This document shows, in pieces, positions 32,852-45,933 of a stretch of DNA of 64,000 nucleotides. Every line of letters starts with the position of its first letter. Within the stretch, counting starts at the first letter, position 1. The notes under the pieces were generated by a model. It had not been told where the DNA came from and searched no databases. It saw only the letters and a program-made list of their open reading frames with translations. The position numbers were made by a program, and so were the translations under genes. The DNA is taken from positions 63,332 to 127,331 of the forward strand of contig JACKEY010000009.1 of assembly GCA_020632755.1 (NCBI GenBank), given 5' to 3'. This stretch comes from Alphaproteobacteria bacterium. GTDB lineage: Bacteria > Myxococcota_A > UBA796 > UBA2385.

Positions 32852-32869
32852 CGAAGCCGCAGGGGCGCG

Positions 32870-33217
32870 TCAGTCCGGCGAGGTGAACCGGCCGGCGTCA
32901 CGCACGCGCAGCTTGGTCATGGTCGCCTCGAAGGCGGCGTCCAGATCGATGCCCTGCTGGTTGGCCATGCAGAGCACGATCCACAGCACGTCGGCGAGCT
33001 CCTCCTGGAGCGCGGCGTCTCCTTCGGACGCCTTCTTCCTCTTCGCCCCGAACCGGTGGTTGTACTCGCGGGCCAGCTCGCCCACCTCCTCGGTCAGCCG
33101 GGCGAGGAGGGAGAGCTCGTCCCAGTAGCCGCCGTTCTCGGCGATCCAGCGGTCGATGTCGCGCTGCAGGCCGCCGATGCTGCGGTCGAGGGAGGGAGGC
33201 GGAGGGGAAGCGGCCAC
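32870..33217 (-). CDS. MazG-like nucleotide pyrophosphohydrolase
   Basis: LTEEVGELARE...EELADVLWIVLCMAN..GIDL (EExxE/ExxD helices of the all-alpha NTP-PPase fold). Confidence 0.8.
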   Translation of the reverse strand: MAASPPPPSLDRSIGGLQRDIDRWIAENGGYWDELSLLARLTEEVGELAREYNHRFGAKRKKASEGDAALQEELADVLWIVLCMANQQGIDLDAAFEATMTKLRVRDAGRFTSPD

Positions 33218-33278
33218 GGGCTCCTCCAGGGGCGCGGTTGTGGGCGTCTGCCGACCCCGTTAGCCGGTGCACCTTCGC

Positions 33279-33509
33279 ATGGAGGCCATCTTGGCTGCAG
33301 ACGATCTGATTCCTGTCGAGGGGGTCATCACCGAGGTCTTTCCCGGTGGCGCCTTCCTCGTCGAGACCGAAGCGGGCACGCAGGTGCACGCCCATCTCTC
33401 CGGCAAGCTCCGCCGGTTCCGCATCCGTGTCGTGCTCGGCGACAAGGTCACCGTCGAGGTGAGCCCGTATGATCTGAGCAAGGGGCGGATCACCTACCGC
33501 CACAAGTAG
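33279..33509 (+). CDS. infA: translation initiation factor IF-1
   Basis: ...LIPVEGVITEVFPGGAFLVETEAGTQVHAHLSGKLRRFRIRVVLGDKVTVEVSPYDLSKGRITYRHK. Start could also be 33267 or the TTG at 33291. Confidence 0.9.
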   Translation: MEAILAADDLIPVEGVITEVFPGGAFLVETEAGTQVHAHLSGKLRRFRIRVVLGDKVTVEVSPYDLSKGRITYRHK

Positions 33510-33524
33510 AGAGTCTCGCAGAAA

Positions 33525-33540
33525 GCCCGTGATTACGGGC
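33525..33540 (+). terminator. short hairpin GCCCGT-gatt-ACGGGC after infA
   Basis: 6-bp stem, 16 nt after the infA stop. Weak. Confidence 0.35.
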
Positions 33541-33597
33541 CCTTAGCGAGGGCGGCAGTCCCGCTGTACGGCTATTTGGGGCCATTTCCGGCCCGAT

Positions 33598-33619
33598 ACC
33601 CGTACAGCAACCCGTACAC
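33598..33619 (+). repeat. left border motif pair ACCCGTACAG / ACCCGTACAC (12-bp period), plus an inverted CCGTACAGC copy at 33563-33571
   Basis: Read directly from the sequence. Confidence 0.8.
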
Positions 33620-33722
33620 GGCGGTGTCGCCGGGATGGGGCGTCGACCCTTCAATGTGGGCGCCGGCCTTGACGGCTGCCACTTGGTGAGCATGAGGGGC
33701 AAGTCCGCTTCGAGGAGGACTT

Positions 33723-34667
33723 GTGTTCACGTTGCCCGGCTTCACCACGATTCGATCCCTGGGCCGCGGCGGCTTCGGGCAGACTTGGCTCCTCCGGCGG
33801 GATTCGGACGGGATGCACTTCGCCGTGAAGGTGCTCCACCAGTACACGCAGGACGCGTTCGACCGCTTCGCGCGGGAGGCGCGGATGCTCCAGCGCAACC
33901 AGAGCAACCCCTACGTCGTCAACATCGAGGGCAGCTTCTTCCAGCAGGGGTACACGCCCTACCTCCTCCTTGAGTACTGCGAAGGCGGATCCCTCGACGC
34001 GTGGGTGACCCATAGGCGGGAGTGGAAGGCGGTGACGTTCGCGCTGGCCCATGCGAGCGCCGGGCTGGACTACCTCCATGGTCTGTCCGACGGGTTCCAT
34101 CGGGACATCAAGCCCGCGAACCTCCTGCTGAAGTACCTGACTCCCGACAAGAGCCAGTGGGTCGTCAAGGTCTGCGACTTCGGCATGGCGCGCACCCCGG
34201 AGACGGTCGGTCCGGGCATGACCTGGTCTCCGGCGGGAACCCCCGGCTACACGGCACCGGAGCTGGTGACGGGCATGTACCATCGGCCCGCGGACATCTA
34301 CTCCCTTGGCGTCACCGGCATCGAGCTGTTGACCGGTAGGAAGGAGCCGGCGGCACTCCTCGGCGCGCTGGGCCCCACCGCGCTGCACCAGCTCCTCCGG
34401 CAGATGGTCTCCCCTGACTGGACCCAGCGGCCGAGCATGTCCGAGGTCAGCGCGCGCCTTCGCCAGATCCTCAACCCGCCCAGGCCGAAGGTGCAGGCGC
34501 GCCCTGCCCCTCGGCCGCAGCCGCCGTCGTCTGGCGGTGGCGGATGGGGCTGGCTGGCGGCGGCGGCGGGGCTCACCGCCCTCGCCCTGGGAACGATGAA
34601 CTCGAAGGACTCCAACGGGCGCTGGCGCGGCAAGGACGGGCGCTACCGCAGCGGGCCGTGGGGCTGA
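33723..34667 (+). CDS. membrane-anchored Hanks-type Ser/Thr protein kinase (island cargo)
   Basis: GTG after GAGGAGGA. GRGGFG, FAVK, HRDIKPANLL, DFGMAR and GYTAPE motifs are all intact. C-terminal TM segment WGWLAAAAGLTALALG. Confidence 0.85.
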   Translation: MFTLPGFTTIRSLGRGGFGQTWLLRRDSDGMHFAVKVLHQYTQDAFDRFAREARMLQRNQSNPYVVNIEGSFFQQGYTPYLLLEYCEGGSLDAWVTHRREWKAVTFALAHASAGLDYLHGLSDGFHRDIKPANLLLKYLTPDKSQWVVKVCDFGMARTPETVGPGMTWSPAGTPGYTAPELVTGMYHRPADIYSLGVTGIELLTGRKEPAALLGALGPTALHQLLRQMVSPDWTQRPSMSEVSARLRQILNPPRPKVQARPAPRPQPPSSGGGGWGWLAAAAGLTALALGTMNSKDSNGRWRGKDGRYRSGPWG

Positions 34668-34692
34668 ACACGGTTGAACTTGGGAGAGGACT

Positions 34693-34941
34693 ATGAGCAA
34701 GAAGTACCTTGTGACCTACGATGTCAAAGACGGAGAGTCTGACGACTACTCAGCAATTGACGAGGCGCTTGAGAAGCACGGAACCATTCAGGCCCGACAG
34801 GGCTCGTCCCGGTGGCTGAAGGACTCTGGCAGCACAGCCCAGGCGGTCCTCGACGCCGTGGTGAAGGCCGTGAAGCCGAAGAGGGCCACGGTCTGGGTCT
34901 TGGAGGCGGCCTCGGGCGCCGACAGGGCTTTCACCGAGTAG
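34693..34941 (+). CDS. 82-aa protein with a Cas2/VapD-like beta-alpha-beta-beta-alpha-beta pattern (hypothetical)
   Basis: ATG is 26 nt after the kinase stop, preceded by GGGAGAGGA. MSKKYLVTYDV... resembles the Cas2 N-terminal strand. Visibly more A/T-ending codons than host genes. Fold is inferred, not demonstrated. Confidence 0.55.
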   Translation: MSKKYLVTYDVKDGESDDYSAIDEALEKHGTIQARQGSSRWLKDSGSTAQAVLDAVVKAVKPKRATVWVLEAASGADRAFTE

Positions 34942-34989
34942 ATCCACGGCGATCGGTCGGGGGGCCTTCCGCCGAAATTGCCAGGTTGG

Positions 34990-35322
34990 CTACGGCGGTG
35001 CTCCTGCGAGAGCGAGCAACGCGGCCCGCAGGCGCTCCCGGGCCTCGACCGGATCCGCCGGCTGCCGGTCGAGCAGAGCGGCCACGGCTGTCTCCGCAGG
35101 CGGGGGGCCGGCGTCGAACTCGAACAGGGCGGACTCCCGCACGCCCAGGGCCGACGAGAGCCGCTCGATGGCTTCGAGCGACGGCCCCTGCTGCCCGCGC
35201 TCGATGCGGCTGAGCGTGTGGGGCGCGAGGTCCGCGGCCTCGGCGAGTTGAGCCTGCGTCAGGTGCCGGGCGGTCCGAAGCTCCCGGACCCGCGCGCCGA
35301 CCTTGCTGACGATGGTGCTCAT
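34990..35322 (-). CDS. XRE-family helix-turn-helix transcriptional regulator
   Basis: MSTIVSKVGARVRELRTARHLTQAQLAEAADLAPHTLSRIERGQQGPSLEAIERLSSALG (classic Cro/C1 HTH). Confidence 0.85.
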   Translation of the reverse strand: MSTIVSKVGARVRELRTARHLTQAQLAEAADLAPHTLSRIERGQQGPSLEAIERLSSALGVRESALFEFDAGPPPAETAVAALLDRQPADPVEARERLRAALLALAGAPP

Positions 35323-35460
35323 CCTGCTCTGCTCCGGGGGGAGCAGCAGAATTGGCCTCGTCACGGCTGGACACAAGGCCGCATGGCGGCCTATCTATGA
35401 GCCGTTATGCGGCTATCCCTTGCGCCGTGATGGGGCGAGCAGGGCCGCGACGGAGGGACC

Positions 35461-35817
35461 ATGCGGCTACTCGTCTTCGCGCTCCTGTTGACCGCCTGCG
35501 GCGAGGATCCGCCGATGACCAAGGCGCACGAGGATGCGCTGTGCCGCGCCGCCCGCGGTGCCTACGCGGAGGTCTACGGGGAGCAGGACCGCGCCCAGGA
35601 CATGAACATCAGCACGGACCGCTGCGCCGTGCAGCTCTTCACGGGCGACGAGCGCGCGGGCGTGGTGATCGACCTCCGGTGGACCCGGACCGGGGGCGGC
35701 CGGACCGCCACGTGGCGCCGGGACTGGACCTGCACGGCGAATCGGGGCGGGCCGGTCGGCTGGGCCTTGAAGTCGGACACGTGCTGGATGGGGGACCGCT
35801 GGCTGGACGCCAAGTAG
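35461..35817 (+). CDS. small lipoprotein, hypothetical
   Basis: MRLLVFALLLTACG lipobox. 118 aa with six Cys. Confidence 0.55.
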   Translation: MRLLVFALLLTACGEDPPMTKAHEDALCRAARGAYAEVYGEQDRAQDMNISTDRCAVQLFTGDERAGVVIDLRWTRTGGGRTATWRRDWTCTANRGGPVGWALKSDTCWMGDRWLDAK

Positions 35818-35843
35818 GGCGCGCATGGCGGGATAGGCCGCGC

Positions 35844-36188
35844 ATGGGACGACGCTCCGCCATCACGCTTCTACGCTCCCCGCCGCCTCAACCCGCGGCG
35901 CCTGAGCGCCGGCTACCGCTCCGCTTGAGTCGCCGCGACCGGCGGCTTCTACTGGGCCGGGCTGGGGTGTTCTCCGTGACGGAAGCGGCGGAGCTGCTGC
36001 CGTTGTCCGACAACGACGCACGCGACTGGATCCGAGGCAAGGGGCTCGTGAGGCGCATCGGGGGCAAGCCCCTCGTGGTCTGGGGCGATGTGCTGGATGC
36101 CTTGGAGCCGGATCCGGGGCTATCCCGGCGTGAACAACGCCGGTCGGGATGCAAGGGCATCGCACGCACGCCGCTGCCTCCCATCTGA
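35844..36188 (+). CDS. excisionase/MerR-like HTH DNA-binding protein (putative)
   Basis: Internal ATG of ORF 35352..36188. ...VFSVTEAAELLPLSDNDARDWIRGKGLV... resembles excisionase-type HTH_17 motifs. Confidence 0.45.
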   Translation: MGRRSAITLLRSPPPQPAAPERRLPLRLSRRDRRLLLGRAGVFSVTEAAELLPLSDNDARDWIRGKGLVRRIGGKPLVVWGDVLDALEPDPGLSRREQRRSGCKGIARTPLPPI

Positions 36189-36239
36189 ATCCCAGCACGG
36201 TGCGCGGATTGGAGATGAACTCGCGGGGATAGGGGGCTC

Positions 36240-37742
36240 ATGCGCCCCTACTCGCCAGTCCCCCGGCTCCCGGTCTACCGCCACGTCGAGCGGCTTCACT
36301 ACATCGTGGCAGGCTGCGGGGACCTCGACCTCGACGTCATCCACAAGCGGCTCCGGGTCAAACTCCGGCGCCGTCTGCGGCGCAAGGGCAGCAAGCTTCG
36401 CCTGCACTTCGACGGCACCCCGCCGCAGGGTGCCGTTCGCCTCGCCCTCACGTTGGCGAAGACCGAGCGCCCACGGCCGCCCGTTGACCTGAAGGCGGCG
36501 GGCCTCCCCGACACGACCTGGTTGCGCTTCCACGGCGGCGGGTCCCGACAACTCAGGCTGTCCATCCACACGAAGGCCGGGCCGCTGGATCCGACAGGCG
36601 GCCTGCGGGACGGCGTCGCATGGCTGCTCGGAGAGCCATGCCTGCGGCTGGAGCGCACCCGTGTCGCCTCCAGTGAAGTCTACGCCGTCTTCACGGAAGC
36701 CTCAGTCACGGCCGCGCGTGCCGCCGGGTGCCCATGGACCCGCTGCTCACGAAGGCGGTCCATCTTCGGAACCGTGCTGGCCTCCTGGAAGGGATGGGCG
36801 ACGGGTGCCCACGTGCCGCTGGACTTCTCGGTGCGGTGCTACCGGGTTCGGGCGGGCGGCTACAAACTTGAAGTCCGGGTCGGCCCTCGCGGGCGCGATG
36901 CCAAGAAACTCGATGCCACCGGCAAGGCGCCGTTGGTGGGTGCGGCTGATCTCCACAGAGCGGCCCTGCGGGTTCTGCGGGCGGCGATCCGGGACGGGCA
37001 CCTCGTCGAGGTCGACAAGCCCGCCCATTGGAAGGGGATCCCGCTCGGCCCTCATCGACGGAGGGGCTGCTTACGGGTTCGCCTGCTCCATGAGCTCGCT
37101 CTCCGCGACGATGGGGCGCCGCTGCCGCTGCTCCACGCTCGCGCCGACCTCCGGGTGGCTCTCGACGTCTCAGAGCCGAGCATGACCCGCCTGCTGCAGG
37201 AGTGCGCGCAGCTCGATCTCGTCGAGGTCCTCAATGCTCCGGGGGCAGCCTCGCGCGGTCACTACGTCCGGCTCGCGGACCCGGCAGGCGCGCGGGCTTG
37301 GCCGTCCATCCTGGGACCTTTCTATGGTTCCTCTTCCCATCGACACAGGCAGGGAGAGGCCGTAGCCGCAGAGCAGGTCCAGGCGGCTGCACACGCCTGC
37401 CCGCGGGAGGGCGATCCCGGACAGGGCACTCCCGAGAGCGGGGCTCCCGCGTGGGGGCTCATCCGAGCGGCGGTCTCTGAGCCCTGGGGCACCTGGGGGC
37501 CCTCCCGAGCGGACCTACGACCCGTGGAGCGGCCGGATGAGGCGGCCATCGCCCGGGGGGCCTTCGAGCTTCGGGAGTGCGGCCGCACGGTGCTTTGCCC
37601 TGGCGTGGACGCGGGCCCGCACCCGCCGTGGTCCGAGGTCGCCCGGGTCCTCAATGACCACCTCATCCCCACGCGCAGAGGACAGGCGTGGAATGAGCGC
37701 TCCGCCAAGCGGTGCGCTAATACCTCGGGAACTACACCATGA
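36240..37742 (+). CDS. 500-aa hypothetical protein (possible Rep_trans-like replication initiator)
   Basis: Long ORF with coding-type codon bias. FSVRCYRVRAGGYKLEVRVGPRG loosely resembles the YdK...RvE core of Rep_trans initiators. The assignment is weak. Confidence 0.5.
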   Translation: MRPYSPVPRLPVYRHVERLHYIVAGCGDLDLDVIHKRLRVKLRRRLRRKGSKLRLHFDGTPPQGAVRLALTLAKTERPRPPVDLKAAGLPDTTWLRFHGGGSRQLRLSIHTKAGPLDPTGGLRDGVAWLLGEPCLRLERTRVASSEVYAVFTEASVTAARAAGCPWTRCSRRRSIFGTVLASWKGWATGAHVPLDFSVRCYRVRAGGYKLEVRVGPRGRDAKKLDATGKAPLVGAADLHRAALRVLRAAIRDGHLVEVDKPAHWKGIPLGPHRRRGCLRVRLLHELALRDDGAPLPLLHARADLRVALDVSEPSMTRLLQECAQLDLVEVLNAPGAASRGHYVRLADPAGARAWPSILGPFYGSSSHRHRQGEAVAAEQVQAAAHACPREGDPGQGTPESGAPAWGLIRAAVSEPWGTWGPSRADLRPVERPDEAAIARGAFELRECGRTVLCPGVDAGPHPPWSEVARVLNDHLIPTRRGQAWNERSAKRCANTSGTTP

Positions 37743-38080
37743 CGCGCGGACGCGGGAGATCGGCGAGCAGCCGCGGCCCCGAGGGACGCGCCCGACCGGA
37801 TGACCGTCCCCGGCGGGCCGCCAGGGGTCCTCTGGCCGCTCAGCCGGCGGCCGGTGGATCCTCTCCGCCCCTCGGCCCCCGTGAGGGCTCTCGCGGCGAG
37901 CGGCGGGTCCATTGGGGCGGCCTCTGGCCCGAATGCGGGACCTCGTTTCATGGGGGTCCCCCTCCCCGGCCCAGATGGACCAAGGGGGCGAGTCGAGCGT
38001 GGGCAGGAGGTGTCTCGGCGGCGCCCGACCCCGTTACCGCCCGGACCTGCGGTAACGCATCCCATTTGCATCCCATTAGA

Positions 38081-38110
38081 ATCCCGTTCGGGATACTATT
38101 GACGTGTCAA
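38081..38110 (+). promoter_or_regulatory. operator-like palindromes upstream of the serine recombinase gene
   Basis: ATCCCG-tt-CGGGAT (38081-38094) and TTGAC-gt-GTCAA (38099-38110), preceded by the direct repeats GCATCCCATT x2 (38058-38077), in an AT-richer patch. Confidence 0.35.
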
Positions 38111-38122
38111 GCGGGAGTCAAG

Positions 38123-38827
38123 ATGAGCACGTCCAAGCCGACCCGAGCCGTCGCCTACCTCCGCGTCTCCACGGACAAGCAGGCCGAGGGCGGGATCTCC
38201 CTCGAAGCCCAGCGGGCGAAGGTCGAGGCGTACGCCGCCCTTTACGACCTCGAACTCGTGGCGGTGGACGTGGACGCGGGGGTGTCCGCCAAGTCCCTCG
38301 ACCGCCCCGCGCTGGACACCGCCCTCGGCCGCCTCCGGTCCGGTGAGGCCGACGCCCTGCTCGTCGTCAAGCTCGACCGCCTGACCCGCTCCGTACGGGA
38401 CCTCGGCGAGCTCGTCGATGCGTACTTCGCGCGGGAGCGCTGGGCGCTCCTGTCCGTCTCGGAGCAGATCGACACGCGCAGCGCCGCCGGCCGGCTTGTC
38501 CTGAACGTCCTCGCCTCCGTCGCCCAGTGGGAGCGGGAGGCCACGGGTGAGCGCACCGCGGCGGCCCTGGCCCACAAGCGGCGCCAGAACGAGTACACCG
38601 GCGGACACCCGCCCTACGGCTGGGCGCTGGCCGACGACGGCCGCACCCTCGTCCCCGTCGAGGCGGAGCAGGAGGCCATCGCGCTGGCCTCCCGCCTCCG
38701 GGATGAGGGCCTGTCGCTCCGCAAGATCGGCGCCCGGCTCGAAGCCCGCGGCGTGCGGCCCCGCTCCGGCGGCGGCTGGCACGCCAAGACCGTCCGTTCC
38801 CTGATCAACGCCAAGGAGGCAGCCTGA
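38123..38827 (+). CDS. serine recombinase (resolvase/invertase catalytic domain plus recombinase domain)
   Basis: AVAYLRVSTDKQ (catalytic Ser), LLVVKLDRLTRS, VLASVAQWEREATGERT. Confidence 0.9.
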   Translation: MSTSKPTRAVAYLRVSTDKQAEGGISLEAQRAKVEAYAALYDLELVAVDVDAGVSAKSLDRPALDTALGRLRSGEADALLVVKLDRLTRSVRDLGELVDAYFARERWALLSVSEQIDTRSAAGRLVLNVLASVAQWEREATGERTAAALAHKRRQNEYTGGHPPYGWALADDGRTLVPVEAEQEAIALASRLRDEGLSLRKIGARLEARGVRPRSGGGWHAKTVRSLINAKEAA

Positions 38828-39108
38828 TGCCACGCAGACCGATCCACCGAAACACCCCGCCGACGCCGGCCAGCCCCGGCCCCGATAGCGGCGGCACCAC
38901 GCAGCTCTCGCTGCGGCTCCCCACCTCGCTCGTCGCCCGGGCCGAGGCGCTCGTCGAGGCGATGCGGGTATCCCCGCCGCCCGGGGTGACCCGCGTGACC
39001 CGCACGCTGGTGCTGCGCCTCGCCCTGGAGCGCGGCCTGAGCGCCCTGGAGGCTGACCACGGCCTCATGGACCCCGAAGGGGGCTCCGCCCCGGGGAGGT
39101 CCCGATGA
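38827..39108 (+). CDS. ribbon-helix-helix (CopG-like) protein
   Basis: ATG overlaps the recombinase stop (TGATG). TQLSLRLPTSLVARAEALV is a beta-strand plus helix RHH pattern. Confidence 0.5.
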   Translation: MPRRPIHRNTPPTPASPGPDSGGTTQLSLRLPTSLVARAEALVEAMRVSPPPGVTRVTRTLVLRLALERGLSALEADHGLMDPEGGSAPGRSR

Positions 39109-40223
39109 GCCGCCGTCGCGTGACGAAGCGCCCCAGGAAGGTCGTCGTCGGCAAGGTCCGCGCCCGCCCCCGCCGCGGACCCAGGAACGCCGGGGAGTGG
39201 TACTGGCAGGCCGTGGTCTACGAGGACAGCAAGGAGCGCACCGTCTGGACGGGGTGGGCGACGCCCACGGACGTCGAGCGGATCCTCGCCAAGCTCGTTG
39301 CGGAGGGCGGGGTGGAGACGCCCCGCGCCGCCTCGGTCTCCGAGATCGAGACCGTGCGGGACCTCATGGAGTGCTGGGTGGCCGTCCAGGAGGCGCGCGC
39401 TGACCTCTCGCCCCGCACCGTTGTCGGCTACCGCAACAACGCCCGCCACGTCGCGGCGGTGTTGGATGAGACGCGGCTCGACCGCGCGGACACCACGACC
39501 GTCGAGCGGTACCGCGATGAGCGGCTGAGGGCCGGCTACGCGTCGAGCACGGTCAAGGCCGAGATGGGGGTGCTCCACATGGCCTGGAACTGGGGCCGAC
39601 AGATGGGCGCGTGCCCTGACCGGCAGCTCCCGAAGGTTCACCTCAAGGTGAAGCCGGCGCGGGAGAAGTACACGCCCCCGCTGCGGGACGTCCTCGCCGT
39701 CATCGACAAACTCGACCGCTGGCCCCGTTTGGCGGCGGTGTTGATGATGGGAACCGGCGCCCGGATCCGCGAGATCGCGACGCTCCGGTGGGCTGACGTG
39801 AACTTCGACGCCGGCACCATCCGCATCCGGGAGTCGAAGACCCGGCCGCGCACCATCCCGGTCGCCGAGGACGTGATGGCCGAGCTTTGGAGGCACGGCC
39901 CCGGTCGCCCCGAAGCCGGCCTGTTCGGTGTCCTGCCTGAGACGGTCATGGGCCAGATGCGGGTGCGCTACCTCCCCCGCGCCTGCGAGCAGGCCGGCGT
40001 CAAGCGGTTCACGCCGCACGCGCTGCGCCGGGCCGCGGTGGACCGCTTCGCCCGCAACGGCGTGGACATCGGCACGGCGGCGGCGTACCTCGGCCACTCG
40101 CCGAAGGTCATGCTCAATCACTACCGGCAGGCGACCGAGGCGGACCTGCGGGATGCGGTGGAGCGGTCGGGGCTTGGCAAGGCAAGCGCGGGCGTCGTGG
40201 TGCCCTTCCGCCAGAGGTCATAG
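39105..40223 (+). CDS. tyrosine recombinase / phage-type integrase
   Basis: ATGA overlap with the RHH gene. ...GTGARIREIATLRWADVNF (Arg box), HALRRAAV, LGHSPKVMLNHYRQ (His...Tyr box). Confidence 0.9.
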   Translation: MSRRRVTKRPRKVVVGKVRARPRRGPRNAGEWYWQAVVYEDSKERTVWTGWATPTDVERILAKLVAEGGVETPRAASVSEIETVRDLMECWVAVQEARADLSPRTVVGYRNNARHVAAVLDETRLDRADTTTVERYRDERLRAGYASSTVKAEMGVLHMAWNWGRQMGACPDRQLPKVHLKVKPAREKYTPPLRDVLAVIDKLDRWPRLAAVLMMGTGARIREIATLRWADVNFDAGTIRIRESKTRPRTIPVAEDVMAELWRHGPGRPEAGLFGVLPETVMGQMRVRYLPRACEQAGVKRFTPHALRRAAVDRFARNGVDIGTAAAYLGHSPKVMLNHYRQATEADLRDAVERSGLGKASAGVVVPFRQRS

Positions 40224-40270
40224 GCGACAGGCGTCCAGGTGATGTACGCCCCTGGGGCAGGAGCAACGCA

Positions 40271-41404
40271 ATGTCGAAGTCGAGCATCAAGGCCAAGGTT
40301 CGTGAGACGCTGTTCGGCAAGGCGGGGGGGCGGTGCGAGTACCGGGGCTGCAACGAGTTGTTGACGGTGGACCACCTGACTCGGAAGCCCGGGAAGTTCT
40401 CCGCCTTTGCCCACATCGTCGCAGACAGTGCTGACGGGCCCCGTGGTCACGAGACGCGCTCCGAGGAGCTGAAGACGGACATCGACAACATCATGTTGCT
40501 CTGCCTCCGGCACCACAAACTCATCGACGTGGATGATGTTGACGGACACTCCGAGGACCGGTTGTGCGAGATGAAGAAGGAGCATGAAGCGCGAATCGAG
40601 CGGCTGACAGCGATAGATGACACGCACAGGACCGTGGTCCTTTCCATGGAGGCCAACATCGGGGGCCGCAAGGGAGTCGTTGACCAGAACCAAGCGTTCC
40701 AGGCGGTTCTCCCGAGGTACCCTGCGGAGCACATCGCAATCGACCTGGCTCACTGGGACTTGCGCGATGGCAAGCGGATCACGTGGGCGGCATGCGTCGA
40801 ACAGATCTCTTCTCGCCTGGAGGACCTTCAAAAGGCCCTGGTGAGAACCGACGCCAAGCACGTGTCAGTCTTCGCTCTGGCTCCGATGCCTCTCCTCATG
40901 TGGCTGGGCCGCTGCCTCGGCGACATAGTCGGCGGGACGGCATTCCAGCGCCACCGCGAGACCGAAGACTGGCAGTGGCGCGAGCCGGTTTCGCCTCCAG
41001 TGCAGTTCGGTTTGGAGCGCCCCGAAGAGCACCAGCCTGACGAGGACGTTGTGCTCGTCCTCTCCATAAGCGCCGAGATTGCTCCAGAACGGCTTGACAC
41101 GGCCCCAGTGGACACCTCCCAGTGGTTCCATCTGCGTGCGCATCCGCAGTCGGTACATGCAGTGCGCACGGCGGAGGACGTGGGAGCCTTCCGGGCCATC
41201 GCTCGGGAAGTGATGACCGAGATCGCAGGCAACTACCCCGCCGGCACCAAAGTCCACGTTCTTCCCGCGGCTCCGAACTCGCTCTGCGTCGAGTTTGGGC
41301 GCCTCCTCCTGCCGAAGGCGGACCCCGATCTCATCGTCTACGACTGGAACGGAGATCTCGGGGGATGGGTCGAGGCGCTGACCCTTGTGCAGCAGCCGGC
41401 CTGA
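40271..41404 (+). CDS. cap5: CBASS effector Cap5: HNH endonuclease fused to a SAVED sensor domain
   Basis: N-terminal CEYRGC...FAHIVA...MLLCLRHHKLID (HNH ββα-Me). The C-terminal ~250 aa have the SAVED-like pattern. Immediately upstream of the CD-NTase. Confidence 0.75.
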   Translation: MSKSSIKAKVRETLFGKAGGRCEYRGCNELLTVDHLTRKPGKFSAFAHIVADSADGPRGHETRSEELKTDIDNIMLLCLRHHKLIDVDDVDGHSEDRLCEMKKEHEARIERLTAIDDTHRTVVLSMEANIGGRKGVVDQNQAFQAVLPRYPAEHIAIDLAHWDLRDGKRITWAACVEQISSRLEDLQKALVRTDAKHVSVFALAPMPLLMWLGRCLGDIVGGTAFQRHRETEDWQWREPVSPPVQFGLERPEEHQPDEDVVLVLSISAEIAPERLDTAPVDTSQWFHLRAHPQSVHAVRTAEDVGAFRAIAREVMTEIAGNYPAGTKVHVLPAAPNSLCVEFGRLLLPKADPDLIVYDWNGDLGGWVEALTLVQQPA

Positions 41405-41557
41405 ACCTCCGGCCACGGGTGATGGCCTTGGTCCGCCTCTGACGGCCCTGATCAGGGGACCTGTCTTGACGAGGGCTTGACGCTGCCGCTCCGGTGACCA
41501 CATTGCGGTCCTTCGCGCCGGCGCTTCCCCAGCCGGCCGCTTGTCCGCGAGGTTTTC

Positions 41558-42616
41558 ATGGCTCATCCGCTCCAGCGCCACTTCATCACCTTCCACGAGA
41601 AGATCAAGCTCGACCGCTTCGACGAGAACGCGACCCTCCGGGAAAAGCGCGACATCGTCCTTGAAAAGCTCCGAAACAACTTGAAGAAGGCCTGGGAGGA
41701 GAAGGACGAAGCGGTGCCGACGTTCGAGCCCCGCAACCAGGGGAGCTACGAAATGGGCACGGGCGTCGTGCCCCTGGATGGCGACTTCGACATTGACGTC
41801 GCGATCATCTTCAACGTCGCCGTCGCAGACCACCCCGACCCTGTCGAGGTGAAGAAGTGGGTGCTGGACGCGCTCGACGGGCACACCAAGGACGTGAGGA
41901 TGAAGCGCCCCTGCGTCACGGTTCAGTACCAGAAGTCCGGTGAGCCGGTCTACCACGTCGATCTGGCGATCTACTCGTCGGGCAAGGAGAACCCTGACGG
42001 CAACACCCGGATCGCGATGGGCAAGCTCAACTCTTCGGATGAGAACAAGGAGTGGCAGCCCTCGGATCCTGTCGCTCTCTGCAAGGCCGTCGGAGACAAG
42101 TTCAACGGCGACGATGCAGCGCAGTTCCGCCGCGTCATCCGGTACCTCAAGCGCTGGAAGGACCACCGCTTCAACTCCAACGGCAATGGTGCTCCTGTGG
42201 GGATCGGGCTGACGATGGCCGCGTACCACTGGTTCACGCCGAAGCAGGAGGACCCGTTCGCTGGCAAGACCGACCACGTCGACCTCGCCGCACTGCGTGC
42301 GCTCGTGGATCGGATGCTGGCGCAGTTCTCCCTCAAGTGGACCGAGGACGGCTGGGCAGAGCGGCTGGAGGCAAAGCTCCCGATCGAGCCTAGGGACGAC
42401 CCATTCCAGCGGATGACCAACAAGCAGATGGGCGACTTCAAGACGAAGCTCGGGGAGCTGGCCGCCGCGCTGAAGGAGGCAGACGAAGAGGTGGCCCCCG
42501 AGGATGCCTGTGCGACGCTTGCGAAGGTCTTCGGTGACGACTTCCCGGTCCCGAAGAAGGATGAGACCGCCAAGTCGAGCAGGGTGTCTGTCCTGTCCAC
42601 CAGTTCGTCGGCCTGA
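41558..42616 (+). CDS. CD-NTase (cGAS/DncV-like cyclic oligonucleotide synthase)
   Basis: QGSYEMGTGV...DGDFDIDV (G[S/G] activation loop plus the DxD catalytic dyad) and a later VDLAIY acidic strand. About 350 aa. Confidence 0.8.
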   Translation: MAHPLQRHFITFHEKIKLDRFDENATLREKRDIVLEKLRNNLKKAWEEKDEAVPTFEPRNQGSYEMGTGVVPLDGDFDIDVAIIFNVAVADHPDPVEVKKWVLDALDGHTKDVRMKRPCVTVQYQKSGEPVYHVDLAIYSSGKENPDGNTRIAMGKLNSSDENKEWQPSDPVALCKAVGDKFNGDDAAQFRRVIRYLKRWKDHRFNSNGNGAPVGIGLTMAAYHWFTPKQEDPFAGKTDHVDLAALRALVDRMLAQFSLKWTEDGWAERLEAKLPIEPRDDPFQRMTNKQMGDFKTKLGELAAALKEADEEVAPEDACATLAKVFGDDFPVPKKDETAKSSRVSVLSTSSSA

Positions 42617-42622
42617 GCTGAG

Positions 42623-44371
42623 GTGACCGAGGACGACGACATGGGCGCCGCCACGTCGGAGGTCGACTGGCGAGCGCTGGCGGCACTCTTGGACGGTCTC
42701 AAGCTGGTACCGCCCGCCGTGGTCAGCCGCCGTCTTGCCAACCCGAAGTGGGTTGTTGAAGGGACCGTTGACGTGGAGGGCCGGTCGGTGCGTGTCAGGG
42801 TGGCCGTGCCCGCCAGTTTCCCTGCCGCCCGCCCGGAGATCTTCCTGATCGAGCAGATTGGCAGCCCGGTCCTGCTGCCGCACGTCGAACCAGACGGCTT
42901 CGTCTGCTACGCGCGAGAGGGACGCTTGGTCCTCGACCCCTTGGACGCCGAGGGGGCCCTGCTTGGCTGCACGGAGCTGGCCCTGAACGTCGTCAGGGAA
43001 AGCCTCGAGGGGCCGCGCCGCGAGGCGGTCGCGCAGGAGTTCGTGGCATTCTGGCGTCAGACGCCTGAATGTGTCGAGGTCAGGGGCTTCGTGACGCCAT
43101 CGGGGCAACCCAGGCGTCTGGTGGCTCGGAAGAGCACCAAGAACTCCGACAAGCCGTTCATGATCGCCGACAACGTCGCCGCCTTCACGTCGTACTACGC
43201 GGTACAGCCTTGGTGCGGAGACATCCACGGCCGCGCCATCTACGTGCCCCTCCGCCCCGGAAGCCTGCCGGAGCCGCCCGGCTGGGGGAAGAAGTGGGCT
43301 CCAGTGGACTATCGACGCTTGGTTCGCGACTGGTGCTCGGAGGAGACCATCTCCTGGCTGAGCGACCAGATCACCCGCTGGAAGCGGCAGGAGCTCGTCG
43401 TGTTCGGGCTCCCCCTCCGCGGTGGTTCGACCGCGCTCTTCGGTGTGTGGTTCCAGCACGCCTTCGGCGGGCACCCGCTGTCTGCAGAGGGCAATGCGAA
43501 GCGCTGTGTACCCCTTCACCTTGTTCGGAAAGACAGGTCCTTCCTGCTCCCACGTGGGGGAGGGATCGAGGGCCTCGAAGACAAGGAGGTGTGCCTTGTG
43601 GGCTGCGGGTCCGTTGGCGGGCTCATTGCCGCCGAACTCGTTCGGGCCGGAGTGCGGAACCTCACGCTGGTCGATCCCGACATCATGCAGGACGAGAACA
43701 CCTACCGACACGCGCTTGGCAGGGTCGGGCTCGGCCACGGCAAGGCCGCCTCCGTCGCTGCCGACCTGGAGGTGCGCTACCCCTACACCAAGATCCGCCA
43801 GGAGCCAGGACGCGCTGAGGCGCTCATCGCCGGCGGCAAGGTCGCCCCCGGGCGGTTTGATCTCTTCGTCATCGCCGTCGATGACATGACAGCTGCCCTG
43901 CATCTCGGACAAGCGCTCCAGTCGAAGCCCCCGCGACAAGGGGCGGTGAATGCGTGGGTGGACCCAATGGGATTGGGTGGACACGTGCTCACGACGATCC
44001 CCGGCTCCTCGGGTTGCCTACGGTGCCTCTTCACCAAGCCCACCACGGGCCGCGGGCTCTTCACACACAACCGGGCGTCGTTCGTCGCAGAAGGGGAGAA
44101 GGTCGAAGCTGACCTCGGTGGCTGTGGCAACCGGTTCACGCCGTTCGGGACGCTGGACGCGAGCCAGACCGCGGTGATTGCGGCCCGTGCGGCGGTGGAC
44201 GTCCTGCTCGGCAGAGCTACTGAGGCGACCTTGCGAAGCTGGAAGGGCGATGCGCGCGAGTTCCAGGCCGCGGGGTACGCTACGTCCGACCGCTACTCCA
44301 TGTCGCAGGCTGAGCTTGATCTTGCCGCTCCCCGATTCGTCAACGCCCGCTGCCCCCAGTGCTCAAGCTGA
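42623..44371 (+). CDS. cap2: Cap2: E2-like N-domain fused to an E1/ThiF-like adenylation domain
   Basis: VCLVGCGSVGGLIAAELVRAGVRNLTLVDPD (ThiF Rossmann), CLRC / CPQC Cys pairs, N-terminal HVEPDGFVCY E2-like Cys. Alternative start is the ATG at 42641. Confidence 0.8.
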   Translation: MTEDDDMGAATSEVDWRALAALLDGLKLVPPAVVSRRLANPKWVVEGTVDVEGRSVRVRVAVPASFPAARPEIFLIEQIGSPVLLPHVEPDGFVCYAREGRLVLDPLDAEGALLGCTELALNVVRESLEGPRREAVAQEFVAFWRQTPECVEVRGFVTPSGQPRRLVARKSTKNSDKPFMIADNVAAFTSYYAVQPWCGDIHGRAIYVPLRPGSLPEPPGWGKKWAPVDYRRLVRDWCSEETISWLSDQITRWKRQELVVFGLPLRGGSTALFGVWFQHAFGGHPLSAEGNAKRCVPLHLVRKDRSFLLPRGGGIEGLEDKEVCLVGCGSVGGLIAAELVRAGVRNLTLVDPDIMQDENTYRHALGRVGLGHGKAASVAADLEVRYPYTKIRQEPGRAEALIAGGKVAPGRFDLFVIAVDDMTAALHLGQALQSKPPRQGAVNAWVDPMGLGGHVLTTIPGSSGCLRCLFTKPTTGRGLFTHNRASFVAEGEKVEADLGGCGNRFTPFGTLDASQTAVIAARAAVDVLLGRATEATLRSWKGDAREFQAAGYATSDRYSMSQAELDLAAPRFVNARCPQCSS

Positions 44372-44387
44372 CGTCACCGCCCTGACG

Positions 44388-44903
44388 ATGCGCCGAGCGG
44401 AAGCTGGGCGGGTGAAGTTCACCGAGTCCGTGGTCCGAGAGTTCCTCGCCAAACGCCAGCTCTCGCCCTCCGCGGCGGAGTCCGGCGGCATTCTTGTCGG
44501 TCGGTGGATCCTGGATTCCGACGACGTCGTCGTGGATACGGCGACGTGCCCACTCTCGGGCGACCGCAGATCGAGGGCTTCGTTTCACAGGAGTCGCCGC
44601 CCCCATCAGGCTGTTCTCAACCGCCTATGGAGGGCATCCAAGGGCACAGCGAACTACCTGGGCGAATGGCACACGCATCCCGAGCCTGTGCCATCGCCGT
44701 CGATGGTGGATCGCTCCGGGTGGGCCTACCAGTTGATGCGCCCAGGTGTGGCTGCGCCGGCCCTGTTCTTCGTCATCGTCGGCCAAAAGGCCATCGGTGT
44801 CTGGGAAGGACGCCGCGGCCGTCCGGGAACGTTCCAGATCCTTCCGCGTGAGCGTGAAGGTGGACCCCCGACCCGTACACTCCACCCGTACACATGCCGC
44901 TAA
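44388..44903 (+). CDS. cap3: Cap3: JAB/JAMM isopeptidase
   Basis: ESGGILVG (Glu) ... YLGEWHTHPEPVPSPSMVD (HxH...S..D JAMM motif). The 3' end runs through the right border repeat. Confidence 0.8.
   Translation: MRRAEAGRVKFTESVVREFLAKRQLSPSAAESGGILVGRWILDSDDVVVDTATCPLSGDRRSRASFHRSRRPHQAVLNRLWRASKGTANYLGEWHTHPEPVPSPSMVDRSGWAYQLMRPGVAAPALFFVIVGQKAIGVWEGRRGRPGTFQILPREREGGPPTRTLHPYTCR
44871..44893 (+). repeat. right border motif pair ACCCGTACAC x2 (13-bp period)
   Basis: Read directly. Same 10-mer as at 33610-33619. Confidence 0.8.
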
Positions 44904-44983
44904 GCGGTGGTGATTACTGAATAGTACCGACTACCGTCACAAGTAGGGCATAGGCAGACGCGCGAAGCGCGCTGCAGAAGCGG

Positions 44984-45036
44984 GTCGGACTTGCAGCTGG
45001 GGGACCGGACGAGCCGGTCCCCAGCTGAAGTCCGAC
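44984..45036. other. long imperfect hairpin (about 23-bp arms) in the island/chromosome junction
   Basis: GTCGGACTTGCAGCTGGGGGACCGG-acga-GCCGGTCCCCAGCTGAAGTCCGAC with two single-base bulges. Lies between the convergent cap3 and the 45109..45906 gene. Confidence 0.6.
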
Positions 45037-45108
45037 CTCGGGGGCGGCGATCAGGGGGGGCGGGAATCAGGGGGGCGGAGATCTAGGGCGTGGACGACGC
45101 CGGCCGCC

Positions 45109-45906
45109 TCAGCCCAGCATGAGCCCTCGGCCGAACACGCCGATCGCCAGCACCAGCGCGACGAGGCCCGCGGCCATCCAGCCGCGGCTGGCCTGCACGT
45201 CCGTGCTGGGGACGGCTGACGTGGGCGGATCGACCAGGGTCGCCAGCCAGGCCATGCCCGACGTGCCGCCGAGCGTCGCCAGGGCCGAAGACGCTGCGTA
45301 GTCCAGCCCGAGCCGGTTGAAGGCCGCGGCCGTGGTCATCGCCGCGCCTCCGACCACCAGGTAGGGCACCAGGCTGAGCTGCCGGGCCCGCGGGCGTCGA
45401 GCATCCGGATCGGCCCCGAACCAGGGCGAGCCCGCGGCGACCAGGAGCTTCATGCTGGCGAAGTACAGGACACCGCCCACGCCGGCCAGCCCGTAGCGCC
45501 AGGCGGCCGCGGGCTCGAGGCCCTGCAGGAAGGCGGTCCAGTCGCCGAAGCCGAACAGGGGATCGGTGAGCAGGTAGCCCGCGCCCAGCAGCAGGTTGAC
45601 CGCGGCGAGCACCCACAGGAAGTAGCCGGTGGCTCCACCCGGTCCCCGGCGCACGGCCAACAGCGCGGCCGCACCGAGCAGCAGGTTCACGCCGGTGCCG
45701 GCCGCCTTGCGGATGCGCAGGGCGCCGACCGCCTCGTCCACGCCGTGCTCGCACATGCACCAGGACGTCGAGAAACCCTGCAGGTCGCCGCCGACGCCCA
45801 GGCAGGCCACGCCGTGCCCCAGCCCCTCATGGGCGAGCTTGGCCACCAGGTAGGCGACCATCGCGACGGCGAGCACGGTGGGCAGGTGGTGGCGGCCGGT
45901 CGACAT
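45109..45906 (-). CDS. polytopic membrane protein with an HExxH motif (putative intramembrane metalloprotease)
   Basis: AKLAHEGLGHGVAC in TM1, followed by 6-7 TM segments. Confidence 0.55.
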   Translation of the reverse strand: MSTGRHHLPTVLAVAMVAYLVAKLAHEGLGHGVACLGVGGDLQGFSTSWCMCEHGVDEAVGALRIRKAAGTGVNLLLGAAALLAVRRGPGGATGYFLWVLAAVNLLLGAGYLLTDPLFGFGDWTAFLQGLEPAAAWRYGLAGVGGVLYFASMKLLVAAGSPWFGADPDARRPRARQLSLVPYLVVGGAAMTTAAAFNRLGLDYAASSALATLGGTSGMAWLATLVDPPTSAVPSTDVQASRGWMAAGLVALVLAIGVFGRGLMLG

Positions 45907-45933
45907 GCCCGGAGCTTGCCACAGGCGCAGCGC

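What the first reader, a model, noticed from the sequence alone, without database searches (positions are those of the whole stretch)
33598..44893. Integrative island after infA with both a serine and a tyrosine recombinase, bordered by clustered ACCCGTACAC motifs
Directly after the infA hairpin the gene content switches to mobile-element functions. It switches back to chromosomal membrane and hydrolase genes after cap3. The 10-mer ACCCGTACAC is AT-containing and should be rare in this composition. It occurs at 33610, with the variant ACCCGTACAG 12 bp upstream and an inverted CCGTACAGC at 33563. It occurs twice more at 44871 and 44884. These paired half-sites at both ends look like recombinase binding sites or att remnants. 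The right pair lies inside the last codons of cap3 (…TRTLHPYTCR), so the cap3 C-terminus may be partly set by the junction. The core recombination module (serine recombinase - RHH - tyrosine integrase) is translationally coupled by TGATG and ATGA overlaps, which is an unusual pairing.
Basis: partly seen in the sequence, partly recalled or inferred. Interest (0 to 1): 0.6.

Follow-up and report, generated by a model that had tools for sequence, protein, structure and literature searches.

The report
CBASS defence island inserted in infA
An 11.4-kb mobile island carrying an anti-phage CBASS system sits in the last five codons of the translation-factor gene infA; the ACCCGTACAC repeats are most likely docking ("arm") sites for its lambda-type integrase, so this is an ordinary kind of element at an apparently unreported insertion site.

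Summary
ACCCGTACAC is rare: 8 exact copies in the 5.4-Mb genome. Three copies plus two variants cluster at the two island ends. The other five are singletons, four clearly inside well-supported ORFs.

The motifs are not the junctions. The true att core is a 15-bp direct repeat, TACCG(C/T)CACAAGTAG. It is the last four codons and stop of infA (33495-33509) and recurs at 44932-44946. These are its only two copies in the genome. The island is 11,437 bp.

Relatives show mobility at this locus:
- G011 and G003 have an empty infA site. G018 shows one core and no arm motif, but its locus is split over two contigs.
- G020, in another genus, has a sister island with the same core, motif pairs and 46-nt spacing, but different cargo.
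- G014 keeps a 1-kb remnant with both att copies.

The motifs lie 46-103 bp inside the cores on both arms. The tyrosine integrase model aligns with full-length lambda Int, including the N-terminal arm-binding domain. I read the motifs as arm-type sites.

The serine recombinase is a short (234 aa) resolvase-like enzyme. It is probably not the integrase.

Cap3's stop lies 28 nt (29 bp) inside the element, so the junction does not set its C-terminus.

Verdict: a new member of a known kind, of modest interest.

The parts
33267..33509 (+). infA (translation initiation factor IF-1); likely start ATG 33279. This is the target gene.
   Evidence: PF01176 3.4e-20. TIGR00008 infA equivalog 93.8 bits against a cut-off of 61.15. 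It is the only PF01176 hit in the assembly.
33495..33509 (+). attL core TACCGCCACAAGTAG: infA's last four codons (Y R H K) plus the TAG stop
   Evidence: One of only two copies in the genome. Relatives' attB reads TACCGGCACAAGTAG.
33525..33540 (+). Element-borne hairpin GCCCGTgattACGGGC that now follows the restored infA (inferred terminator)
   Evidence: The same hairpin with compensatory changes sits at the left end of the G020 island.
33563..33571 (-). Inverted arm-like site (CCGTACAGC on the minus strand), 56 nt after the core
   Evidence: Conserved in G020.
33598..33619 (+). Left pair of arm-type sites, ACCCGTACAG ca ACCCGTACAC, 91-103 nt after the attL core
   Evidence: G020 has ACCCGTACAGCGACCCGTACAC at the same place.
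33723..34667 (+). Hanks-type Ser/Thr kinase (cargo; resembles defence-associated kinases)
   Evidence: Pkinase 1.1e-38. PADLOC mad6 4.5e-51 and PD-T4-6. 83% identical DNA in the G020 island.
34693..34941 (+). 82-aa protein of unknown function
   Evidence: Coding bias. phrog_1090 1.9e-5, function unknown.
34990..35376 (-). XRE-family HTH regulator (candidate element repressor)
   Evidence: NCBIfam HTH_XRE-type hits such as RstR 8e-9. 89% identical DNA in G020.
35461..35817 (+). 118-aa putative lipoprotein of unknown function
   Evidence: GC3 0.95. A similar ORF in the G020 island (by eye).
35925..36188 (+). Small HTH_17 (excisionase-family fold) protein, candidate Xis; start uncertain (35925, 35967 or 35976)
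   Evidence: HTH_17 5e-5, 23.9 bits, below the cut-off of 27. Homologues lie next to integrase homologues in 6 other loci.
36240..37742 (+). 500-aa orphan protein specific to this element family
   Evidence: No Pfam, NCBIfam, PHROG or PADLOC hit. Within the order it occurs only in G000 and G020. Three relatives among 1.8 billion representatives.
38032..38110 (.). Control region before the Ser recombinase: inverted repeat CGTTACCG-N10-CGGTAACG (38032-38057), direct GCATCCCATT x2, and palindromes at 38081 and 38099
   Evidence: The inverted repeat is conserved before the G051 homologue.
38123..38827 (+). Short serine recombinase (234 aa): catalytic domain plus the first half of the 'Recombinase' domain
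   Evidence: Resolvase 6.3e-35 and Recombinase positions 2-50 of 102. phrog_95 positions 84-308 of 651. CcrB positions 3-215 of 542. A 74%-identical homologue covering residues 5-233 in G051.
38827..39108 (+). 93-aa protein, possibly ribbon-helix-helix; overlaps both neighbours (TGATG, ATGA)
   Evidence: No family hit. One relative at 60% identity. The AF2 model has pLDDT 62 and two helices after an extended segment.
39105..40223 (+). Heterobivalent (lambda-type) tyrosine integrase
   Evidence: PF00589 3e-20. R220, K245, H305, R308, H331 and Y340 are present. AF2 pLDDT 88.5 with an N-terminal beta-sheet plus helix. Aligns with full-length lambda Int: residues 7-354 to 8-356, Z 18.9.
40271..41404 (+). 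CBASS effector Cap5 (HNH endonuclease-SAVED)
   Evidence: SAVED 3.4e-40. PADLOC SAVED_HNH 1.7e-108.
41558..42616 (+). CD-NTase (oligonucleotide cyclase)
   Evidence: PADLOC Cyclase 1.1e-128. DncV-like NTFase 1.6e-12.
42623..44371 (+). Cap2 (E2/E1 fusion)
   Evidence: PADLOC E1-E2 1.3e-132. ThiF and Prok-E2_B.
44388..44903 (+). Cap3 (JAB deubiquitinase-like). Its last 10 codons overlap the right arm sites.
   Evidence: PADLOC JAB 2.2e-44. Prok-JAB 1e-11. Start read.
44871..44893 (+). Right pair of arm-type sites, ACCCGTACAC tcc ACCCGTACAC, 46-59 nt before the attR core
   Evidence: G020 has AACCCGTACACCCGACCCGCACAC with the same 46-nt gap to CACAAGTAG.
44932..44946 (+). attR core TACCGTCACAAGTAG: the displaced original 3' end of infA
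44955..45036 (.). Hairpins directly after attR: inferred native infA terminator, displaced 11.4 kb from its gene
   Evidence: Read. In G020 a hairpin also follows the attR TAG. Inference.

Best explanation
The region is an 11,437-bp site-specific integrative island, a small defence island. A lambda-type tyrosine integrase, encoded in the island at 39105-40223, inserted it into the 3' end of the single-copy infA gene.

How it works:
- Recombination took place between a 15-bp core in the element's attP and the identical last four codons plus stop of infA (attB).
- The element carries its own copy of that 3' end and a terminator hairpin, so infA stays intact. The protein still ends ...GRITYRHK.
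- The original infA 3' end and its terminator are left at the far side as attR.
- The ACCCGTACA(C) repeats are the integrase's arm-type sites. There are two direct copies on the arm left of the attP core, which is now the right end. There are one inverted and two direct copies on the other arm, now the left end.
- The integrase's N-terminal domain would bind these repeats while its core-binding and catalytic domains act at the core. This would build a lambda-like intasome, probably helped by the small HTH_17 protein and perhaps the 93-aa protein as directionality factors.

Cargo is a type II CBASS (Cap5, CD-NTase, Cap2, Cap3) plus a kinase module.

The short serine recombinase, which overlaps the 93-aa gene and sits just before the integrase, is most likely a resolvase or regulator. 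It would act at the inverted repeat in front of its own gene, not at the infA junctions.

Shown: the repeats, the empty sites, the sister island, the domain architecture and the catalytic residues.
Inferred: which protein binds the motif, present-day activity, and the role of the serine recombinase.
For: Core repeat:
- The core occurs exactly twice in the 5.4-Mb genome, at the infA stop and at 44932. None of 100 shuffles gave 2 matches.

Empty and occupied sites:
- G011 and G003 keep infA and the sulfatase gene 1.4-2.8 kb apart, against 13 kb here. They have one core and no motif. G018 also shows one core and no arm pattern, but its two flanks lie on separate contigs.
- G003, G014 and G020 are the same genus yet differ: empty, a 1-kb remnant with two cores and a motif pair, and a full island.
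- The G020 island shares the left backbone (kinase, XRE, 500-aa orphan), the arm motifs, the hairpin and the 46-nt arm-to-core spacing. Its right-hand cargo differs.

Motif distribution:
- 5 of the 10 CCGTACA heptamers in 64 kb lie within 103 bp of a core.
- The other genomic 10-mers are singletons; four lie in ORFs with strong coding bias.

Integrase:
- A full catalytic set is present.
- The N-terminal domain is conserved across homologues.
- The AF2 model has strands 13-52 plus helix 54-66.
- It aligns with full-length lambda Int including the arm-binding domain.
- HTH_17 genes sit beside integrase homologues in 6 loci.

Other:
- Island GC is 68.5% against 71.4% elsewhere; the CBASS part is 63-67%.
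- About 95%-identical copies of 35021-44915 occur in an unrelated aquatic metagenome, with different sequence on both sides.
- Site-specific tyrosine integrases often target the exact 3' end of conserved translation genes. They leave 12-54-bp direct repeats without changing the product (PMC4701971).
Against: - No excised circle or repaired attB was seen. Only assembled contigs could be laid, and they cannot show rare forms.
- Binding of the integrase to the motif is inferred, not measured.
- Pfam does not recognise the N-terminal domain as an arm-binding family.
- The sister island in G020 breaks at a contig end just where its recombinase genes should be. The best integrase matches in that genome are only 40-41% identical and lie on other contigs. 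The link between this integrase and these arm sites therefore could not be cross-checked.
- The integrase gene sits mid-island, 5.6 kb from attL, rather than next to an att site.
- attL and attR differ at one core position (C against T, where relatives have G).
Confidence: 0.78

Rival explanations
1. The island is as described, but a different island protein binds the ACCCGTACAC repeats. Candidates are the excisionase-like HTH_17 protein, the XRE repressor, the 93-aa protein, or the 500-aa orphan acting as a replication initiator with iterons. On this view the repeats are accessory-factor or origin sites, not integrase arm sites.
For: - The proteins demonstrably shared by the two islands that carry the motif (G000 and G020) are the kinase, XRE, the small lipoprotein-like ORF and the 500-aa orphan. 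A closely related integrase is not among them.
- Direct repeats at 12-13-bp spacing could also serve a Xis-like or iteron-binding protein.
- In the circular form all five copies would fall within about 250 bp.
Against: - The motif lies on both sides of the core, at distances typical of arm sites. Xis sites in lambda lie on one arm only (established knowledge).
- The integrase has the three-domain heterobivalent architecture, which implies arm sites somewhere in attP. No other repeat family is seen near the cores.
- The G020 integrase may simply be unassembled, since the contig ends right after the orphan gene.
Confidence: 0.15
2. The serine recombinase, alone or with the 93-aa protein, is the enzyme that integrated the island at infA. 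The tyrosine recombinase would be the accessory or resolution enzyme.
For: - The serine recombinase overlaps the 93-aa gene, which overlaps the integrase gene, so the three look like one operon.
- Its best family hits are large serine integrases (phrog_95 8.2e-66, CcrB, XisF).
- The same Ser-Tyr pairing recurs in G051.
Against: - It is only 234 aa and matches only the N-terminal parts of those models: about a third of phrog_95 (positions 84-308 of 651) and about 40% of CcrB (3-215 of 542). It therefore lacks the zinc-ribbon and coiled-coil domains that large serine integrases use to recognise att sites.
- Serine integrases leave a 2-bp crossover, not a 15-bp repeat, and use no arm sites (established knowledge).
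- In G051 the 74%-identical homologue sits next to a tyrosine integrase only 37% identical, so it behaves as a separable module.
- It has its own conserved inverted repeat upstream.
Confidence: 0.04
3. The motif clusters and the 15-bp repeat are coincidence, or the block is vertically inherited DNA with no site-specific history.
For: There is no direct evidence of excision.
Against: - The core occurs twice in 5.4 Mb, exactly at the two borders.
- The motif statistics argue against chance.
- Empty sites exist in relatives, and a sister island has the same core, arms and spacing.
Confidence: 0.02

Closest known systems
Lambda-type (heterobivalent) tyrosine integrase systems with arm-type sites: lambda Int with P1, P2, P'1-P'3; also HP1, L5 and Tn916 integrases
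   Same: - Three-domain integrase whose model aligns with full-length lambda Int.
- A short core shared by attP and attB.
- Repeated 9-10-bp motifs tens of bp away on both arms.
- A small HTH excisionase-like gene in the element.
   Different: - Sequence identity to lambda Int is only 15-18%.
- The arm motif, ACCCGTACAC, is its own.
- The target is a protein-coding gene.
- The element is a phage-gene-free island.
- The integrase gene sits mid-element.
ICEs, IMEs and genomic islands integrated in the exact 3' end of conserved housekeeping or translation genes, such as streptococcal elements in rplL, rpsI, rpmG, lysS and guaA (PMC4701971), and their decayed integrase-less remnants (CIMEs)
   Same: - The direct repeat consists of the target gene's 3' end.
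- The gene product is unchanged.
- The target is the last or only gene of its transcription unit.
- A tyrosine integrase is paired with an excisionase-like gene.
- G014 carries a 1-kb integrase-less remnant flanked by both att copies.
   Different: - The target gene is infA. I found no paper naming it as an attB in the library searched.
- No relaxase, coupling protein or T4SS was recognised, so it is not an ICE.
- The host lineage is a high-GC, activated-sludge, probably myxobacterial group.
Type II CBASS operons (Cap5 HNH-SAVED, CD-NTase, Cap2 E1/E2, Cap3 JAB) carried on mobile defence islands
   Same: All four components are present and score strongly against the PADLOC CBASS models. They are carried as lower-GC terminal cargo of a mobile element.
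   Different: Nothing unusual in the operon itself. The only oddity is that the last 10 codons of Cap3 overlap the integrase arm sites.
Small serine recombinases (resolvases/invertases such as Tn3/gamma-delta TnpR, Sin, beta) that act at a site just upstream of their own gene
   Same: - Catalytic domain with the RVSTDKQ serine motif.
- Short C-terminal DNA-binding part.
- A conserved inverted repeat and palindromes directly upstream.
   Different: - Its closest sequence relatives are large serine integrases (CcrB, XisF, phrog_95), of which it keeps only the N-terminal portion.
- It overlaps the 93-aa gene, which in turn overlaps the tyrosine integrase gene.
- Its site and role are untested.

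Membership tests
Tyrosine (lambda-type, heterobivalent) integrase element | Tyrosine-recombinase catalytic domain with the R-K-H-R-H/W-Y residues | tested here: met
   PF00589 3e-20. R220, K245, H305, R308, H331 and Y340 are present and conserved in 22-25 of 25 homologues.
Tyrosine (lambda-type, heterobivalent) integrase element | Separate N-terminal arm-binding domain (three-stranded sheet plus helix) | tested here: met
   AF2 model with strands 13-52 and helix 54-66, block pLDDT 78-94. VIA alignment to full-length lambda Int 1z1b_A covers model 7-354 against chain 8-356, 312 residues, Z 18.9, rmsd 18.3 because of domain placement. There is no Pfam hit for this domain.
Tyrosine (lambda-type, heterobivalent) integrase element | Repeated arm-type sites on both arms of attP, distinct from the core | tested here: met
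   Five CCGTACA sites lie 46-103 bp from the cores, on both ends. They are conserved in the G020 sister island with the same 46-nt spacing. That the integrase binds them is inferred.
Tyrosine (lambda-type, heterobivalent) integrase element | Direct repeat (core) at both junctions, identical to a single attB in empty genomes | tested here: met
   A 15-bp core occurs twice in the genome. A single copy is seen in G011, G003 and G018.
Tyrosine (lambda-type, heterobivalent) integrase element | Excisionase / recombination directionality factor | tested here: inconclusive
   The HTH_17 protein scores 23.9 bits against a cut-off of 27. Homologues neighbour related integrases in 6 loci. The 93-aa protein has no family hit.
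Tyrosine (lambda-type, heterobivalent) integrase element | Excision to a circle and re-integration | not testable with these tools
   Only assembled contigs were available. No attP or attB joint was listed.
Large serine integrase | Catalytic domain followed by a complete recombinase domain, zinc ribbon and coiled coil (about 450-700 aa) | tested here: not met
   The protein is 234 aa. It matches only phrog_95 positions 84-308 of 651, CcrB 3-215 of 542 and Pfam Recombinase 2-50 of 102. The G051 homologue matches residues 5-233 of the 234.
Integrative and conjugative element (ICE) | Relaxase, coupling protein and type IV secretion genes | tested here: not met
   No such family appeared in Pfam, NCBIfam or PHROG scans of the backbone ORFs; the CBASS genes were scanned with Pfam and PADLOC only. 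At 11.4 kb there is no room for a T4SS. A novel relaxase in the 500-aa orphan is not excluded.
Type II CBASS | CD-NTase plus effector plus Cap2 (E1/E2) plus Cap3 (JAB) in one operon | tested here: met
   PADLOC Cyclase 1.1e-128, SAVED_HNH 1.7e-108, E1-E2 1.3e-132 and JAB 2.2e-44.

The most novel reading that the evidence does not exclude
The serine recombinase, the 93-aa protein and the tyrosine integrase form one functional two-recombinase unit specific to a rare family of infA-targeting islands. In this reading the short serine enzyme acts at the conserved inverted repeat before its own gene. It would resolve, invert or gate the element and so control when the tyrosine integrase is made. The 500-aa orphan would be a new kind of replication or transfer initiator. 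Together these would make a new type of small mobilisable defence island.
Probability: 0.12. Interest if true: 0.55.

Novelty: new member of a known kind. Interest (0 to 1): 0.3.

Why it matters
- It gives a clean, fully delimited example of how a CBASS anti-phage system travels in high-GC environmental bacteria. Core, arm sites, empty site, sister element and decayed remnant are all identified.
- It adds infA to the list of essential translation genes whose 3' ends serve as landing pads.
- The defined ~260-bp attP, 15-bp core and compact integrase could become an integration tool for these hard-to-engineer bacteria.
- The biology itself follows the established lambda/ICE pattern, so it does not open a new question.

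Tried and rejected
- Excision evidence. Contigs of four public runs were laid on 32001-46500. No joint matched attB (33509 to 44947) or attP, and the joints listed have 20-25-nt sides and look spurious. Contigs cannot show rare forms, so this says nothing either way.
- More family members in metagenomes. The arms + spacing + core pattern gave 0 hits. The arm pair alone gave at least 117 hits of all GC contents; among the 80 stretches that were listed and screened, none encoded a relative of an island protein, so they look like chance.
- The search for related loci with the integrase in genome contigs gave only hits at 33% identity or less over substantial stretches (one 33-residue segment reached 58%).
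An exhaustive phmmer search found only 3 relatives, so its function stays unknown.
- Arm-pair hits in the order. Those in G034 and G055 lie in a membrane-protein coding sequence and are chance. Those in G072, G088 (two loci) and G137 are intergenic with several copies, but have no infA core and no island genes on their short contigs.
- The G020 integrase was not found next to its island because of a contig break. The best matches, at 40-41%, lie elsewhere.
- The 35-nt similarity between 33243-33277 (before infA) and 38017-38051 (before the Ser recombinase), 71% identical, is judged chance in 72%-GC DNA.
- Literature. I found no paper in the library naming infA as an attB. Word-start hits were 'infant' and the E. 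coli serW/infA neighbourhood.
- RHH fold of the 93-aa protein. The model has low confidence (pLDDT 62). It is compatible with RHH but does not show it.

Full report
**The observation**

The window is a 72%-GC stretch of a 5.4-Mb, 82%-complete metagenome-assembled genome. The source is activated sludge.

With up to one mismatch the window holds 9 matches against 2.7 expected, and none of 100 shuffles reached 9. The whole genome holds only 8 exact copies of ACCCGTACAC. Three are at the island ends. The other five are singletons; four lie in ORFs with strong coding bias, and the fifth has only a weakly supported covering ORF.

**Gene content**

Domain hits are; coding bias is.

| Coordinates | Strand | Gene |
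|---|---|---|
| to 33509 | + | infA |
| 33723-34667 | + | Hanks-type kinase |
| 34693-34941 | + | 82-aa protein, unknown |
| 34990-35376 | - | XRE regulator |
| 35461-35817 | + | 118-aa lipoprotein-like protein |
| ~35925-36188 | + | small HTH_17 protein |
| 36240-37742 | + | 500-aa orphan |
| 38123-38827 | + | serine recombinase |
| 38827-39108 | + | 93-aa protein |
| 39105-40223 | + | tyrosine integrase |
| 40271-41404 | + | Cap5 (HNH-SAVED) |
| 41558-42616 | + | CD-NTase |
| 42623-44371 | + | Cap2 |
| 44388-44903 | + | Cap3 |

The four CBASS genes form a complete type II system. infA is genuine and single-copy. It passes the TIGR00008 equivalog cut-off and is the only PF01176 hit in the assembly.

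**The real junctions**

Comparing the window with relatives showed that the motifs are not the borders. The last 15 bases of infA, TACCGCCACAAGTAG (33495-33509), recur as TACCGTCACAAGTAG at 44932-44946. These are the only two copies in the window at up to 2 mismatches, where 0.03 were expected. They are also the only two in the whole genome.

The island, counting one core, is 11,437 bp. Its GC content is 68.5% against 71.4% outside. The infA product is unchanged and ends ...GRITYRHK, as in relatives.

**Empty, occupied and decayed sites**

- **G011 and G003.** infA and the sulfatase gene that flanks the island on the right lie 1.4 and 2.8 kb apart, against 13 kb here. Each has one core and no motif in that interval.
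- **G018.** One core copy after infA and no arm-pair pattern anywhere in the genome, but infA and the sulfatase gene lie on separate contigs, so adjacency is not shown.
- **G020.** This genome, from a different genus of the same family, has a sister island. The left end follows infA with the same hairpin (carrying compensatory changes), the inverted site and ACCCGTACAGCGACCCGTACAC. It also has the kinase (83% DNA identity), XRE (89%) and a 42%-identical copy of the 500-aa orphan. The right end reads AACCCGTACACCCGACCCGCACAC, then the same 46-nt gap, then CACAAGTAG and the sulfatase flank. The cargo before the right end is unrelated to CBASS.
- **G014.** This is the same genus as G020 and the empty G003. 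It has a 1-kb integrase-less remnant after infA, with AACCCGTACATCGACCCGTACGG and a second, decayed core.

Across 182 genomes of the class, the composite right end (arms, spacing, core) occurs only in G000 and G020. The second refuting outcome, conserved synteny with no variable boundary, is also excluded.

**What the motifs are**

Five of the ten CCGTACA heptamers in the 64-kb window lie within 103 bp of a core:
- two direct copies 59 and 46 nt before the attR core;
- one inverted copy 56 nt after the attL core;
- two direct copies 91 and 103 nt after the attL core.

In the circular form they would flank a single core on both sides within about 250 bp. That is the layout of a lambda-type attP.

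The integrase fits this reading.
- It has the full catalytic set R220, K245, H305, R308, H331 and Y340.
- Its N-terminal region is conserved across 24 homologues.
- The AlphaFold model has mean pLDDT 88.5. It shows a beta-sheet at residues 13-52 plus a helix at 54-66, ahead of the core-binding and catalytic domains.
- Foldseek and VIA-align match it to full-length lambda Int. For 1z1b_A, model residues 7-354 align with chain residues 8-356, 312 residues at Z 18.9. Structures lacking the arm-binding domain align only from residue ~82.

I therefore read ACCCGTACA(C) as arm-type sites of a heterobivalent integrase. The binding itself is inferred.

The main weakness is in G020. Its contig ends exactly where the recombinase genes should be, and the best integrase matches in that genome are only 40-41% identical and lie elsewhere. 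I could not confirm that the same arms go with the same integrase. This leaves about 15% for another island protein binding the motif.

**The recombinase module**

- The TGATG and ATGA overlaps around the 93-aa gene follow from the ORF coordinates.
- Homology of the serine recombinase starts at the Met at 38123. The 128 codons before it are low-complexity and unmatched.
- At 234 aa it covers only the N-terminal part of the large-serine-integrase models: phrog_95 positions 84-308 of 651, CcrB 3-215 of 542, and Pfam Recombinase 2-50 of 102. It fails the membership test for a large serine integrase.
- A 74%-identical homologue in G051, matching residues 5-233, lies between a RepA-like ATPase gene (my reading of the translated ORF; not scanned) and a tyrosine integrase only 37% identical to this one. 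The short form is therefore conserved and behaves as a separable module.
- Upstream of it lies the inverted repeat CGTTACCG-N10-CGGTAACG (38032-38057). This repeat is also present before the G051 gene. Direct repeats and two palindromes follow. This is what one expects of a resolvase-type enzyme acting at, and regulating from, a site by its own gene. That role is inferred.
- The 93-aa protein has one relative, which sits on contigs of the same number and longest length as the 78%-identical integrase. Its low-confidence model shows an extended segment followed by two helices. This is compatible with ribbon-helix-helix but does not show it.
- HTH_17 genes neighbour integrase homologues in six other loci, which supports an excisionase role for the one at ~35925-36188.

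**Cap3 and the junction**

Cap3's JAB domain ends about 6-14 residues before the stop. The stop at 44901-44903 is followed by 28 nt before the core, so excision or integration cannot change the protein. Only its non-conserved tail overlaps the arm sites. In G020 a different gene precedes the same arms.

**Signs of circulation**

- A second sludge sample holds an identical contig across infA and attL.
- An aquatic metagenome from another study holds contigs covering 35021-44915 at roughly 93-97% identity. They diverge both left of the XRE gene and 17 nt before the core.
- Integrases 92% and 78% identical exist in public assemblies.

**Comparison and verdict**

The element follows the textbook pattern of lambda-type integration. 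It also fits the pattern of ICE, IME and island insertion into the exact 3' end of conserved translation genes, with 12-54-bp repeats and an unchanged product (PMC4701971). No conjugation genes were recognised, so it is not an ICE. The G014 remnant resembles a CIME.

I found no paper in the searched library that names infA as an attachment site. That is weak evidence for novelty of the target.

The 500-aa orphan has three relatives among 1.8 billion representative proteins, and its function remains open.

Overall this is a new member of a known kind. Interest is modest.

Noticed in passing
window 36240-37742; L023 (G020:C331) 74-1681: The 500-aa orphan has no family hit and only three relatives among 1.8 billion representative proteins. 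Within the order it occurs only in the two infA islands. It is a candidate element-specific replication or transfer protein.
   Followed up: partly
window 38032-38110: The inverted repeat CGTTACCG-N10-CGGTAACG before the serine recombinase is conserved before the 74%-identical G051 homologue. It is followed by GCATCCCATT x2 and two perfect palindromes. This may be the recombinase's own site or operator.
   Followed up: partly
L027 (G014:C6) 88-1139 and 1321-1950: G014 has a 1-kb integrase-less remnant between two infA-3' copies, holding two minus-strand ORFs. Just beyond its attR lies an AbrB/MazE-type antitoxin plus a Doc/Fic-type toxin pair (read by eye). The infA downstream region is a hotspot with different content in each genome (Tad-like genes in G003, a RibD_C-like gene in G011; gene names read by eye, not scanned).
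   Followed up: partly
L032 (G088:C153) ~300-380 and L037 (G088:C561) ~1250-1330: Two short contigs of G088 share an 86-bp, 85%-identical intergenic stretch with three ACCCGTACAG-type sites each. G072:C180 and G137:C194 also have intergenic pairs. These may be arm sites of related elements with other targets. No integrase lies on these contigs.
   Followed up: partly
window 33723-34941: The island's kinase scores 4.5e-51 against the PADLOC mad6 model and matches many PD-T4-6 models. With the adjacent 82-aa protein it may be a second defence module. An aquatic-metagenome variant of the island lacks this left part.
   Followed up: no
Genome-search hits G052:C46, G053:C732, G054:C29: Homologues of this integrase often occur as tandem pairs 40-1,000 bp apart, and in several copies per genome within the order.
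   Followed up: no
window 44955-45088: The hairpins and short tandem repeats right after attR are best explained as infA's original terminator region, displaced 11.4 kb by the insertion. G020 also has a hairpin directly after its attR.
   Followed up: partly
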